Source: Lingula anatina
Lineage: Eukaryota > Animalia > Brachiopoda
Assembly (NCBI GenBank): GCA_051362555.1
Contig: CM120640.1
Location: 57,762,788-57,826,787 of the forward strand
Direction of reading: 5' to 3'
DNA length: 64,000 nt
Translations under genes and position numbers: made by a program
The notes under the pieces: generated by a model
Databases searched by the model: none
What the model was told of the DNA's origin: nothing
What the model saw: only the letters and a program-made list of their open reading frames with translations
Part shown: one piece after another, positions 16,693-21,071 of the stretch
Layout: each line of letters opens with the position of its first letter
Numbering within the stretch: the first letter of the stretch is position 1

Positions 16693-19600
16693 CCGCTCTC
16701 TCTGTCAAATATTTAAAATCTTTTCCACAAAGTAATCGTTTATGTTCTTCAGTATAATGACAAATTTGGAAACATTTTGAAAACAAGTGCCATTATGTAT
16801 ATTCAACAAAAGAAAGAACAAAAAAGGTGTTTTTATACATATTAAAATATGTCTTAATGATTGTACATTTATTAATAATAGCTAATGCATGCTTACCTGT
16901 CTTCCTCACAGAGTGCTAACATTTTAGGAACAGGTACTCCCTGGGTGCCCACTGCTTTCATGACTCGGTACTCTCTTTCCACAGCATGAGCGGAGGGCAA
17001 AAGTTTCCCTGGCTGGAAAAATTCAGAATTTGGTGAAAAACAACATTCTTTATTTCAATATGCATCTCAACCTCTATCCCTTTTCTATCTCAACAGATTT
17101 ACTACTTTATAGTATGTAATGTGGCCACCTACAAATTAAACAGATAACTTATTACAATATTAAAAATCACTGTGATTAGCACAATAAAACAAACAGCATG
17201 TGTAAGATAGATATTTATAAATCTAATATTATGACAAGCAAAGCTGAACTTAGTTATGACAAACAACCATTACATGTACCAGAGCTGTTGCCAGATATAT
17301 TGCGGCAATGCTAAGCATAACATAAATACAGTACATGGCTTATAAGGATATATAAGACTTCTTTTCTTTACTTACTGGTTTCTTTCTTAAAACCAAATTT
17401 TTTCCACCATAAGAAATGAAGTAAGTAGGATTTGACTGACCGTGGGCAAAACATCTGACAGCAGGTGGATCTGAAACAGCAACATTCATGGTTTGACTAA
17501 TATATACTATAAAGAAGAATACATTTCTGATATCAATATTGCTGTATATATAACAAACTATGCCATTTATATTGCTGTAGGCTAATGTTTTATCAAGAAA
17601 CCACTGGCCCACTTCTCCCAGGTCAGTGACCATTCCAGACAGGCAAGTAAAATCTGAACTTAACTTGTCCAAATGACTAGCATCTGACTGTAAAATAAAT
17701 GATTCTGAGCCAAGCTAATATCCTTAGAGATCTATTAACATGCTTGTCCAGTGCAAAAGAAAACATTTTGTAACACTATATATGCTATCTTCATAGCATA
17801 TCTCTCACATTAACACTGTACTGAACCTACAGCATTATTAAACACATACTAAACTTGCCTTTTGAGTGAATCTTTAATACCCAGTTCATGTATCTTGTAA
17901 GTTTCATAACAGGTAACTGTAGATTTTCTGGAACAGCTATTGTGCCAGGGTAAAAACCTCTTACACCAAACCCAACTTCTGACTCCAACTTCCTTATTGA
18001 CTGATCAACCTCACCTACATCAACCTAGAAGAATGGCACAGAGCCTTTTACCAGGATTGAAAAGAGATACAGACATTTCCTCTGTTGCTGTCCCTCATTG
18101 GGGCTTTTTTGTTTCATCACTCCCATATCAAGTAATAATCAATTTTGCACTAGAGCAATCCTCAAAACCCTGTTCCCATTTTTATAGGAAACCACAAAAA
18201 ATGTATTTCCAATATAGCAGATGCATCTGACAAAGGAAATGGCAATCTATCCCTTTCCACTCACATGGCAACAATCACATTTTGAACATTTATTTCACAT
18301 AGTACTTGCCTTGGGAATGAAGATCCAAAGCCTCATTGAGGTATTTTGTTAATTTGTCAATTGGAAGCTCCAGCCTCTTTGGTACTAAAGTTGTTCCGGG
18401 ATAAAAACCCCTCAATGAAAAACCCAGGTAAGTCTCCAATTGTTTCAAACTCTGTAAAGGCTCAGTCTGTGAGACCTCCAAAACAAATCAAAGAACAATG
18501 TCAAGCAACAGCCTGTATATATCACCACAAACACTACGGGTATATTGCTTGCTTTGCATGCTATGCACCAGTTGTTTAGCCATTAATAATTACATGAATT
18601 GCAATGTATTTAAGGCATTGTCAACAAAATTTATCATTTTCATCAAAATTTAGAAAGATACCATTTAGAAATCACGCACTGAAACTGAAGCACACTGTGG
18701 ATGCAAAAAATAAAGCATATATATATATATCAGACAATTTTATTGAATTTCATAAATTACAATGTTAAAGGATATTATTACTAAACAAATCAATAATCAC
18801 TATGAAATAACTATGAACTCATAAACAGTTAAAGCTAACATAAAAACTGATGATTGCTAATATAATTTACTTATAAACATCAGCTGAATAATCCACACTT
18901 TACACCTTACCCTTATTTAGTAAATTTTTGAGAATGTCAAAAAATAATTTAAACAATAAATTAAATCAAAAGAAGATTCCATTAGAAAATTCCTTTTCAC
19001 AGTAAAACATAAAGATCACCTTTATTGTCCTCATTCCCATTTCTTTTGCTGGTTTCAGGTTCCTTCCAATGTCATCAAGAAATATCACTTCCTCTGGATG
19101 AACATTCAGGGCTTCTAGGCACATCTGGTATATCTTAGGGTTTGGTTTCTTGATTTTCACGATACATGATTCCAATATCTAAAACATTTAAAAAATGATG
19201 TATCCTTTACTCGATAACAGTGTTATAACTGTTCAGTCATGCATTATGTTCTTATCAAAATTATTTGAATTTTTAATGTTTCTTGGAAAACATAAGCCAT
19301 TCAATTACAAAGATAAATTAGCCATTTAACCAAAAGTCTCATTCCTTAAAATATTTTTTAAAGCTACGCACTACATCAAAAAGTTTTCTGTCCAAAGGCA
19401 TTGCAGACTGTGTAGGAGTAATAAGCCAGTTGTTGGTGATAAGGGCTGTCTTAATCCCTTCTGCTCGAATACACTGTATGGCATCAAGCATCTCTGGATA
19501 TGGTCTCGCAGTCATATCTGTCAGTCCATAAAATAAGGTGGAAGCATCAATCTTTTTCCCAACCTATGTTCATAAAAGAAAAAATATTGAGGAGAATACA

Positions 19601-21071
19601 TGAACAGTAGATATGTGGATACACAGAGATCTTTTTCAGAGTCTCTGCAGAGAGCTTAAATGTGTAAACAACAAATACATTTACAGTCTAAGTAAATGAA
19701 CATTTTATTGAAATGGAGCAATGGAGATACTTTACAGTGTATATGAACTAAATATTGTAACATAGATGCTGCATTACAATTATTTAGATGCTGAGAGATA
19801 TTATGTGGACAGTGGCAATATATGCTTTACTCGTCTTTAGGGGTGCTGGTAATAGCAGTACCTTCTCTCTTCATGCATATCAAATATAATACACTGACCC
19901 CCTCTCATGCTACGTATATGCCTTTAACACCTTGAGCATTAGGAAGAGATGTTCTTGCATATATCGCTTGGGTAACTAACATGGCATTTATGGGTGACAG
20001 TGTATTATCTAACACATAATCCCAAACTGACTTCAATATGTTTTGAAAAATAAAAAAGTTTGCAGAAATATTGCAGCAATATTGTTGCAAACTGAAAGAT
20101 TGCAGCAACTAGTTTGGAGGATGTTGCAAAAAATAATTTACTGTTGGTAACTTGCAGCCATATTGCAGCAAAAAATTGCTGCAGATTTGCAAGAAAAAAT
20201 TGCAGTTTGCAGAAATATTGCAGCAGGCCTGACATTTTGCTATGGAAAATCTCACACTTACGTGACAACTTCACTTATTCATTAAAAACAAACAAAACAA
20301 CAGTTGATAAATGGAGAAACCCAAGTAAATCCTATACCTTGTCAGATAAACCTCTGTTGAACTCCTCAACATACTCCTTGAATGTCATCTCTCCTCGATC
20401 CAGTTTGGCCCAGCCACCTTGTTCTCCAAGACTAACTATGAACTCATTAACACTGTTTTTAGGAAGGTTGAGTGCAGCTTCAAAATCTAAAGAAAAATTT
20501 GACATTGCATGCTTATGATGTGTAACATGTAATTAAATTATGTTAAAAAAAAAAACTAAACAAATAAATCAAATCAAAAGCAGGCTGGAAAAAAAGCCAT
20601 ATGAAATACATTTTATCTTTCCTTGACACCTTTTAAACTTTTTGGAAAGAAAAAATTAGTTTTCCATAGAATTATAATTAAACTTAATTTTGTCATGTAG
20701 CATAAAAGCCTGTTGCTTGACAATGTTATTTGGTTTTGGGGTCTCACAGACTGAACCCTTACAGAGTTTGAAACAACATTTACATGTAAAATCTGGATAC
20801 TAATACATAAAATTACATTACATTATATAACGTACTGGATATTAAAAATAGGTAAATGGTATATACACCAGTACAAACCATTGAAAGCCTGGAATGGAGA
20901 TGGTAAAAGCACCCCTCCCATATCAAATATGACTGCTTTGGTAGGTGTAGTAGTAGAGCCATATCTCCTGGATCCTCTACCCTCACTGCACACTGATGTC
21001 GCTACAGCAGGGGAATGCTTCAATACATGACCAGAAAGGCTCTTCAATCTCATCTGGGCCAAACGCATCAT
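6200..21071 (-). CDS. ACAD10: Acyl-CoA dehydrogenase family member 10 (HAD + APH-like kinase + ACAD domains)
   Basis: Coding exons (approx.): 21071-20879, 20486-20338, 19563-19372, 19178-19020, 18475-18310 (6a) or 18024-17859 (6b), 17470-17376, 17012-16897, ~16569-16389, ~16198-16048, 15736-~15591, ~15207-15033, ~13898-13724, ~13407-13240, ~9762-9622, ~9349-9213, ~8602-8512, ~8291-8133, ~7902-7730, ~7471-7328, ~6992-6915, then 6592-6440 or 6352-6200. Motifs: [21 protein letters not shown] and FLDD; kinase GQSNPTY and [36 protein letters not shown] and ADGPDEVH. Confidence 0.95.
6440..6592 (-). CDS. ACAD10: ACAD10 proximal alternative last exon (ends ...KSKL*, canonical PTS1)
   Basis: catag acceptor, 153 nt, phase 0, open: [50 protein letters not shown]; 34/50 aa identical to the distal exon. 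Confidence 0.88.
9777..13045 (+). mobile_element. Helentron-associated (HINE/pearl-like) element with internal tandem repeats
   Basis: 5' end ACAAGGCAGCAAAGCTGTCAAATGTACAGAC; ~370-bp degenerate units then ~160-bp units (CCGATCA.GCTGATTTTCGAACTTGACCTG); GACG-type microsatellite; 3' hairpin TATGTACAGACACA-tc-TGTGTCTGTACATA followed by an A-run; no TSD seen. Confidence 0.75.
11372..11925. mobile_element. MITE with ~120-bp TIRs and 5-bp TSD, nested in the HINE-like element
   Basis: CAGGCCTACCCAACT... / ...AGTTGGGTAGGCCTG; AAAAT on both sides (11367-11371, 11926-11930). Confidence 0.9.
16668..16703. repeat. (CT)n microsatellite
   Basis: Direct reading. Confidence 0.9.
17859..18024 (-). CDS. ACAD10: ACAD10 mutually exclusive exon 6b
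   Basis: ttctag acceptor, 166 nt, GC donor (AAG|GCAAGT): [55 protein letters not shown]; same length and phase as 6a, 28/55 aa identical. Confidence 0.88.
18310..18475 (-). CDS. ACAD10: ACAD10 mutually exclusive exon 6a
   Basis: Rare GAG acceptor, 166 nt, GC donor (AAG|GCAAGT): [55 protein letters not shown]. Confidence 0.88.
20710..20776 (-). promoter_or_regulatory. Intronic element complementary to the exon 6a branch point/acceptor/5' end (candidate long-range RNA pairing)
   Basis: Inverted copy of 18440-18511; the 36 exonic nt give 34 Watson-Crick + 2 G-U pairs on the transcribed strand. The regulatory role is inferred. Confidence 0.7.

What the first reader, a model, noticed from the sequence alone, without database searches (positions are those of the whole stretch)
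18440..20776. Long-range antisense element in intron 2 that can cover the branch point, acceptor and first 36 nt of exon 6a
20710-20776 is an inverted copy of 18440-18511, 2.2 kb and three exons away. The 36 exonic nt pair fully; the two differences (both at synonymous third positions) give G-U pairs in the transcript but A-C mismatches on the other strand. Pairing continues over the pyrimidine tract and a CTTGAC branch-like motif, and the A of the acceptor AG is bulged or opposite C, an ADAR-favoured geometry. It matches 6a only. Inference: an RNA switch that occludes 6a while intron 2 is still present, coupling exon choice to splicing order or start site, or looping out the HAD exons. This is analogous to docking/selector pairing in Dscam-type clusters but acts across intervening exons. 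Two wobble sites are weak statistical evidence on their own.
Basis: partly seen in the sequence, partly recalled or inferred. Interest (0 to 1): 0.88.

Follow-up and report, generated by a model that had tools for sequence, protein, structure and literature searches.

The report
Intronic antisense copy of splice acceptor
In the lamp shell Lingula, a 70-base back-to-front copy of the start of one of two alternative exons of a fat-metabolism gene (ACAD10) sits three exons upstream and is predicted to pair with and hide that exon's splice site, which would nudge splicing to the spare exon; the copy is real and also present in a diverged lineage, but a regulatory role is only weakly supported.

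Summary
Window 20707-20776, in intron 2 of Lingula anatina ACAD10 (minus strand), is an inverted copy of 18440-18514, the acceptor and first 36 nt of exon 6a (blastn E 5e-17; predicted duplex -108 kcal/mol). It is the only such partner among 22 acceptors, and 6b has none. Both arms occur in DNA of two other studies, one a lineage about 5% diverged, so it is no assembly artefact. In that lineage both G-U sites are inferred to be G-C and a new G-U appears. All 3 exon-facing changes keep pairing (neutral simulation p about 0.01-0.03, post hoc), while the pyrimidine-tract part has decayed. Against a switch: 6a dominates 3 of 4 RNA runs; no exon2>7, exon2>6b or back-splice joint, and no editing, is listed (shallow depth); conservation against the flanks is not significant (1/70 vs 13/249, p=0.15). 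It is not a Dscam-type docking/selector system. Best reading: a fairly young inverted micro-duplication forming a splice-site-masking helix that tunes the 6a:6b ratio while intron 2 persists (0.42). A tolerated neutral copy is nearly as likely (0.36).

The parts
20707..20776 (-). Antisense element in ACAD10 intron 2: inverted copy of the exon-6a acceptor region
   Evidence: present in runs X6 and X10
18440..18514 (-). Target arm: end of intron 5 (branch-like motif, pyrimidine tract, acceptor) plus first 36 nt of exon 6a
18440..18475 (-). Exon-facing helix (36 bp, with 20741-20776); no pair-breaking change seen in two lineages
18499..18511 (-). 13-bp helix (with 20710-20722) over the branch-like motif, putative branch A at 18501; no change listed in X10 or X6
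   Evidence: branch role inferred from consensus
18476..18498 (-). Pyrimidine tract and acceptor with G at -3; imperfectly paired and variable between lineages
20879..21082 (-). Exon 2, first coding exon (ATG at 21071; ends in phase 1; 5' boundary from the sequence only)
20338..20486 (-). Exon 3 (HAD domain), inside the loop
19372..19563 (-). Exon 4 (HAD domain), inside the loop
19020..19178 (-). Exon 5 (HAD domain), inside the loop
18310..18475 (-). Exon 6a, 166 nt, GC donor; HAD-to-kinase junction; major form in 3 of 4 RNA runs
17859..18024 (-). Exon 6b, 166 nt, GC donor; 28 of 55 aa identical to 6a; RefSeq isoform X3
17376..17470 (-). Exon 7 (kinase domain; starts in phase 1)

Best explanation
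The element is an inverted copy of the exon-6a acceptor region, likely made by a local DNA duplication, and it is predicted to act as a built-in antisense strand: in transcripts that still carry intron 2 when exon 6a is made, it would pair over the branch point and the first 36 nt of 6a and shift splicing of exon 5 to the spare exon 6b. Shown: the copy, its 6a specificity, its presence in two lineages, use of 6a, and annotated 6b isoforms. Predicted: the duplex (net about -49 kcal/mol after opening costs and loop penalty). Inferred: it tunes the 6a:6b ratio and does not enforce exclusivity, which more likely rests on frame and nonsense-mediated decay (166-nt exons; 6a+6b stops at once). Also inferred: it could persist because masking 6a costs little when an in-frame alternative exists, and the exon-facing helix is under weak selection.
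For: Duplex -108.4 kcal/mol; opening costs 18.3 and 28.5, loop about 12; formed in the MFE of 20900-18300. Only 1 of 22 acceptors has such a partner (-106 vs -30 to -48 best for the other 21), and it belongs to an alternative exon. X10 (flanks: 13 listed substitutions and 3 indels in 249 intronic nt) keeps the element: no listed substitution in 20707-20776, one 4-nt insertion that restores colinearity with the target, and both arms merge into one 33-nt contig, 20740-20772. With the exon alleles of RNA run X18 (same lineage by a shared double change at 18429-18430) the inferred ancestral exon-facing helix is 36/36 Watson-Crick, and all 3 later changes give G-U. A neutral-copy simulation gives P(no pair-breaking change in the exon part) 0.010-0.029. 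Precedents: a stem masking an acceptor balances two acceptors in Drosophila Atrophin (PMC2724269, passages); an intronic inverted exon copy accompanies exon skipping in human CHM (PMC8756506, passages).
Against: 6a dominates: 5>6a 14 reads and 6a>7 21 reads over 4 runs, no 6b junction listed. The 6b share of depth is at most 12%, 17%, 2% and 70% (X12, X15, X18, X16; a few reads each), and is lowest in X18, the lineage with the best-paired helix (tissues unknown). Conservation of the element against its flanks is not significant once the inferred change at 20755 is counted (1/70 vs 13/249, p=0.15). The pyrimidine-tract part carries 7 pair-weakening events in about 24 nt, including a pair-breaking allele at 20737 in X6. 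The 6a/6b pair is far older than the copy looks (91/166 nt identical). Alleles inside the element are inferred from contig counts, because differences near piece ends are not listed. No nascent reads cover the element.
Confidence: 0.42

Rival explanations
1. Tolerated neutral copy. A template-switch type inverted micro-duplication survived because intron 2 is usually gone before 6a is made and because 6b offers an in-frame escape. Its identity reflects youth and perhaps gene conversion between the arms, not selection on RNA pairing.
For: It copies intron and exon together, so it came from genomic sequence. Other short single-copy duplicates exist in the window, e.g. a 55-nt direct pair at 45953/46308. 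Conservation against flanks is not significant. The intronic part is decaying. 6a is the major exon. A copy masking a constitutive acceptor would be purged, so landing on an alternative exon is expected without any benefit (inference).
Against: 3 of 3 exon-facing changes are G-U compatible (P 0.019 given three events) and none breaks a pair, against about 3-4 breaking changes expected. A net -49 kcal/mol helix is unlikely to be without effect when both arms coexist (inference).
Confidence: 0.36
2. Back-splicing or loop-out element. The arms flank exons 3-5 like the complementary intronic repeats that favour circular RNA; pairing would bring the exon-5 donor to the exon-3 acceptor while hiding the next acceptor, giving a 500-nt circle and/or an in-frame exon2>7 mRNA without the HAD domain.
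For: The element ends 221 nt before the exon-3 acceptor and the target lies 506 nt after the exon-5 donor; the circle is 149+192+159 = 500 nt. Exon2>7 is in frame. Human complementary pairs are enriched outside circular RNAs, and looped-out exons are included less (PMC8052449, passages).
Against: No exon2>7, exon2>6b or backward joint is listed in 4 runs, and exons 3-5 are covered at depths like exon 2. Two of the four libraries are poly(A) or oligo-dT and would lose circles, so the circle itself is hardly tested.
Confidence: 0.12
3. Editing-site complementary sequence. The helix recruits ADAR to recode the first codons of 6a or to destroy the acceptor AG.
For: A 36-49 bp near-perfect exon-intron helix is a plausible ADAR substrate (established knowledge).
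Against: The only A-to-G change listed in the paired exon (18443) is at 11 of 11 reads in X18, 0 of 9 in the other three runs, and is inferred to be genomic in X10. The acceptor A is bulged and has a 5' G, the least favoured neighbour (recalled). Depth is 2-11 reads and 52 weaker rows were hidden, so low-level editing is not excluded.
Confidence: 0.06
4. Order-keeping hold. The helix keeps the weak 6a acceptor closed until intron 2 is removed and then releases it, so it orders splicing without lowering 6a use.
For: 6a has G at -3 and a GC donor yet is the major form, most of all in the lineage with the best helix.
Against: No direct data; 6b lies 450 nt downstream and would be expected to win while 6a is hidden (inference).
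Confidence: 0.04

Closest known systems
Long-range splice-site-masking stems in Drosophila Atrophin and CG33298 (PMC2724269; passages seen)
   Same: An intronic sequence pairs over an alternative splice site; in Atrophin the stem balances two acceptors.
   Different: Those boxes are short, conserved across 12 species, lie around one intron and were mutation-tested. Here the helix is about 70 nt, looks like a copy, spans three constitutive exons, and is seen only in two Lingula lineages.
Human ATE1 exons 7a/7b (PMC7797038; passages seen)
   Same: Two duplicated alternative exons; R1 and R4 overlap splice sites; a separate long-range pair (R2-R5) sets the ratio and depends on transcription timing.
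   Different: ATE1 has competing R1R3/R3R4 pairs that enforce exclusivity; none was found here. R2-R5 spans 30 kb and favours 7a; here the partner is upstream, in a non-adjacent intron, and covers the acceptor itself.
Dscam-type docking site/selector pairing (PMC6071210; abstract and Introduction seen)
   Same: Tandemly duplicated alternative exons with long-range complementarity.
   Different: One docking site pairs with a selector for each exon and exposes it. Here there is one target only, the geometry is masking, and no competing partner exceeds shuffles.
Intragenic inverted duplication in human CHM (PMC8756506; passages seen)
   Same: An inverted genomic copy of an exon with its flanks sits in an intron of the same gene; the authors propose template switching and a hairpin as the cause of exon skipping.
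   Different: A large, private, pathogenic copy at a constitutive exon, with the hairpin untested. Here a 70-nt copy is shared by two lineages at an exon that has an in-frame spare.
Complementary intronic pairs flanking circular RNAs and looped-out exons (PMC8052449; passages seen)
   Same: Arms on both sides of exons 3-5.
   Different: One arm is the next exon's own acceptor; no back-splice read was seen.

Membership tests
Dscam-type docking/selector system | Tandemly duplicated alternative exons of like length | tested here: met
   6a and 6b are both 166 nt, 28/55 aa identical; RefSeq X1 vs X3
Dscam-type docking/selector system | One docking site with competing selectors, one per exon | tested here: not met
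   Element vs 6b acceptor -26.4, background level; five intron-pair scans around 6a/6b all within shuffles (10-34 of 40 shuffles as good)
Dscam-type docking/selector system | Pairing exposes the chosen exon | not testable with these tools
   Needs a minigene; the predicted geometry covers the branch point and exon start
Dscam-type docking/selector system | Deep conservation with compensatory changes | tested here: inconclusive
   Only one diverged lineage read; three one-sided G-U changes, no two-sided change
Long-range splice-site-masking helix | Stable helix overlapping an alternative splice site | tested here: met
   Predicted only:
Long-range splice-site-masking helix | Arms conserved beyond neutral expectation | tested here: inconclusive
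   p=0.15 against flanks; p 0.01-0.03 for absence of pair-breaking changes, post hoc
Long-range splice-site-masking helix | Disruption changes splicing and compensation restores it | not testable with these tools
   Bench experiment
Complementary flanks that drive back-splicing | Arms on either side of the exon block | tested here: met
Complementary flanks that drive back-splicing | Back-splice junction exon 5 to exon 3 | tested here: inconclusive
   None listed, but shallow and half the libraries are poly(A)-selected
ADAR editing-site complementary sequence | A-to-I sites in the paired exon | tested here: inconclusive
   None listed beyond one inferred genomic allele; depth 2-11
ADAR editing-site complementary sequence | Target A in a favoured context (opposite C or U, 5' neighbour not G) | tested here: not met
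   Acceptor A bulged with 5' G; preference recalled, not from a call
Template-switch inverted duplication | Copy of unspliced genomic sequence, inverted, nearby, single copy | tested here: met
   single copy shown for the 64-kb window only
Template-switch inverted duplication | Microhomology at the breakpoints | not tested
   Flanks have diverged and no pre-insertion allele was available

The most novel reading that the evidence does not exclude
A non-adjacent upstream intron works as a timer: a young inverted copy of one exon's acceptor hides that exon only for as long as intron 2 survives, so the speed of removing an unrelated intron (or a start site that omits it) sets which HAD-kinase linker ACAD10 gets. 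It would be a regulatory RNA helix caught soon after birth by a one-step inverted micro-duplication, a route open to any exon that has an in-frame spare.
Probability: 0.2. Interest if true: 0.75.

Novelty: new variant of a known kind. Interest (0 to 1): 0.45.

Why it matters
Known splicing-control helices are mostly old and short, and how they arise is hard to see. This one still looks like a copy of its target and differs between two living lineages, so it offers a dated case of a helix arising by inverted duplication. It also makes one question directly testable: can the lifetime of a non-adjacent intron set exon choice? Exon 6 joins the HAD domain to the kinase, and in mammals the HAD domain restrains the kinase (PMC11342911, passages), so 6a versus 6b could alter that brake (inference). 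If the copy is neutral, it still shows that a spare exon lets a gene tolerate an inverted copy of a kind linked to disease at a constitutive exon.

Tried and rejected
No whole genome is held, so there is no genome-wide rate of such copies and single-copy status holds for the window only. No RNA holder was listed in the index; raw 2026 runs were laid instead. X7 showed only the target arm and no contig over 20560-20965, exon 2 included; this hole is uninformative. The X11 (organism B) hit, 36 nt with 6 differences and unrelated flanks, is taken as chance; X11 showed no exon-2 match. The metagenome scan gave 1 locus matching 18 residues, taken as chance and not used. Small inverted repeats near the 6a and 6b donors (I14, I15; -18 to -22 kcal/mol) were tested as a downstream docking site and do not exceed shuffles. 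No Rfam match in 17300-21200. Orthology of the Lingula and Lineus exon pairs was considered and not supported: the Lineus copies group together at 99/87 on a 53-column tree. Paper searches for ACAD10 isoforms, Lingula editing and Lingula splicing listed no paper on this locus (listings only; subscription papers are missing; supplements were not read and could hold Lingula editing or splicing tables). PMC12440821 passages were uninformative. Searches were listings used to pick papers. Look-ups of earlier findings showed nothing on this feature.
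Full report
Gene and setting. The stretch lies in a minus-strand gene whose exon 6a matches Lingula anatina ACAD10 isoform X1 at 100%. Pfam gives HAD (45-232), APH kinase (294-520) and acyl-CoA dehydrogenase domains. Exon 6 (residues 232-286) is the HAD-to-kinase junction. It exists twice, 6a (18475-18310) and 6b (18024-17859), both 166 nt with GC donors, 91/166 nt and 28/55 aa identical. 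RefSeq models use 6a (X1, X2, X4) or 6b (X3). X5 begins in an out-of-frame reading of 6a and continues into 6b, which I read as a model holding both exons. Joining 6a to 6b, or exon 2 to 6b, stops at once; exon 2 to exon 7 stays in frame. Exclusivity can therefore rest on frame and decay, one of the mechanisms listed in the Introduction of PMC6071210.

The observation. 20707-20776 is an inverted copy of 18440-18514 (86.7% over 75 columns, E 5e-17). The predicted duplex is -108.4 kcal/mol on the transcript strand and -95.9 on the other. Opening local structure costs 18.3 and 28.5 and the loop about 12, leaving about -49. The helix forms in the MFE of the whole 2.6-kb stretch. Of 22 acceptors scanned against the gene, only 6a has such a partner (-106; best of the other 21: -30 to -48). 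The duplex has three parts: a 36-bp exon helix with two G-U pairs, a mismatched segment over the pyrimidine tract with the acceptor A bulged, and a perfect 13-bp helix over a branch-like motif 25 nt upstream of the acceptor.

DNA of other animals (4 of the 12 contig runs listed were laid, on 20560-20965 only). X6 carries the element in one piece with one change, T to A at 20737, which breaks a pair beside the acceptor. X10 is diverged: 13 listed substitutions and 3 indels in 249 nt of flanking intron, no listed substitution in the element, and a 4-nt insertion after 20732 that removes the reference's 4-nt bulge. In X10 the two arms merge into one 33-nt contig (20740-20772, depth 117 against 37-46), so they are identical there. 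Differences near piece ends are counted but not listed, so I inferred them. RNA run X18 shares a double change at 18429-18430 with X10 and has fixed exon alleles at 18458 and 18443 (11 of 11 reads each). With these, the per-record counts fit one solution: G-C at both reference G-U sites and a new G-U at 18443/20773. One counted difference of X10 record 1 stays unplaced. The ancestral exon helix was thus likely 36/36 Watson-Crick, and all three later changes (two in the reference lineage, one in X10) give G-U. The intronic part already had five arm-to-arm differences before the split and gained more after it. X7 and X11 were uninformative.

How strong is that? Element against flanks: 0/70 vs 13/249, p=0.037 on listed changes, but 1/70, p=0.15 with the inferred one, and p=0.20 with indels. 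A simulation that scatters the 11-12 events over a neutral copy, the target intron and synonymous exon sites expects 3.0-3.9 pair-breaking changes in the exon part and gives none with p 0.010-0.029. The X10 lineage alone expects about 1 breaking change and shows none (p about 0.35, hand calculation). I take this as a hint of selection, no more. By the same counts the copy looks only about three times as old as the lineage split (rough inference), much younger than the 6a/6b pair, whose third positions agree at 12 of 25 identical codons.

RNA (4 of the 9 RNA runs listed, 6-25% of each read, 179-316 reads laid). Junctions: 2>3 35 reads, 5>6a 14, 6a>7 21. No 6b junction, no 2>7, 2>6b or backward joint reached the listing limit of 3 reads in a run. 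The 6b bins hold at most 12%, 17%, 2% and 70% of 6a+6b depth in X12, X15, X18 and X16 (one to three reads each, some intronic). So 6a is not usually silenced, and is used most in the lineage with the best helix; the X15/X16 contrast within one study may be regulation or noise. No read covers the element. No editing is listed in the paired exon; 52 weaker rows were hidden.

Mechanism. The 6a acceptor is transcribed 1.86 kb after the end of exon 3. If intron 2 has been removed and released by then, 6a is free; if not, the helix would hide its branch point and start, and exon 5 would go to 6b, in frame (inferred). This makes it a ratio-tuner tied to splicing order. The same geometry could favour a 500-nt circle of exons 3-5 or an exon2>7 mRNA; neither is seen, and the circle is barely tested. 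Landing on an alternative exon is not itself proof of function, since a copy over a constitutive acceptor would be purged. I put the tuner at 0.42, a tolerated neutral copy at 0.36, back-splicing or loop-out at 0.12, an ADAR guide at 0.06 and an order-keeping hold at 0.04.

Comparison. It would work like the acceptor-masking stem of Atrophin (PMC2724269, passages) and the ratio module of ATE1 (PMC7797038, passages), and it resembles in origin the CHM inverted duplication (PMC8756506, passages). It fails membership of the Dscam docking/selector family: there is one target and no competing partner. What differs from the cases I read is the upstream, non-adjacent intron and the copy-like origin. 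My searches were listings and do not show that such an arrangement is unpublished. Among isoform sets of 9 other genera, only the nemertean Lineus showed two versions of exon 6, and these group with each other (99/87, 53 columns; 8 unnamed rows were left out of the tree), which points to an independent duplication. Whether Lineus has a like element could not be read.

Verdict. A real, single-target, lineage-shared antisense copy with a modest sign of selection on its exon-facing helix and no demonstrated effect on splicing. New variant of a known kind; interest 0.45.

Noticed in passing
window 6592-6443 and 6352-6203 (minus): ACAD10 also has two alternative last exons (ending SKL and SKM). Alternative last exons occur in Lineus, Dreissena, Ruditapes (three), Saccostrea and Mytilus too, so this pair is widespread in Lophotrochozoa. 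No antisense partner for either acceptor.
   Followed up: partly
P0125 vs P0126 (Lineus longissimus): The same exon 6 has two versions in a nemertean, probably duplicated independently: the HAD-kinase junction exon seems to have been duplicated twice.
   Followed up: partly
window 18309-18308, 17858-17857 and 18478-18476: Both 6a and 6b use GC donors, and the major exon 6a also has G at acceptor position -3.
   Followed up: partly
window 17641-17663: A short intronic stretch can pair with either GC donor (-19.7 and -17.9 kcal/mol) but does not exceed shuffles.
   Followed up: yes
window about 23700-27800 (plus): Divergent neighbour with Diphthamide_syn domains, DPH1-like (gene name recalled), head to head with ACAD10.
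   Followed up: partly
window 11371-11926: About 555-nt element with 122-nt inverted ends (92%) inserted in an older repeat inside a long ACAD10 intron; MITE-like.
   Followed up: no
window 21339-21454: Small inverted-repeat element upstream of exon 2 that attracts many reads from other loci on both strands.
   Followed up: no
window 1-3300 (minus): Downstream gene with exons resembling a class I myosin head (from reading; label recalled, not searched).
   Followed up: no
runs X10 and X18: Both carry the label organism A but differ from the reference by about 5% in introns and share alleles, suggesting a distinct lineage or cryptic species.
   Followed up: partly
P0004 (RefSeq X4): An isoform starting at a Met in exon 4 lacks the N-terminal targeting-like sequence and uses 6a; if its transcript starts downstream of intron 2 it would lack the element. 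Its transcript structure was not seen.
   Followed up: no
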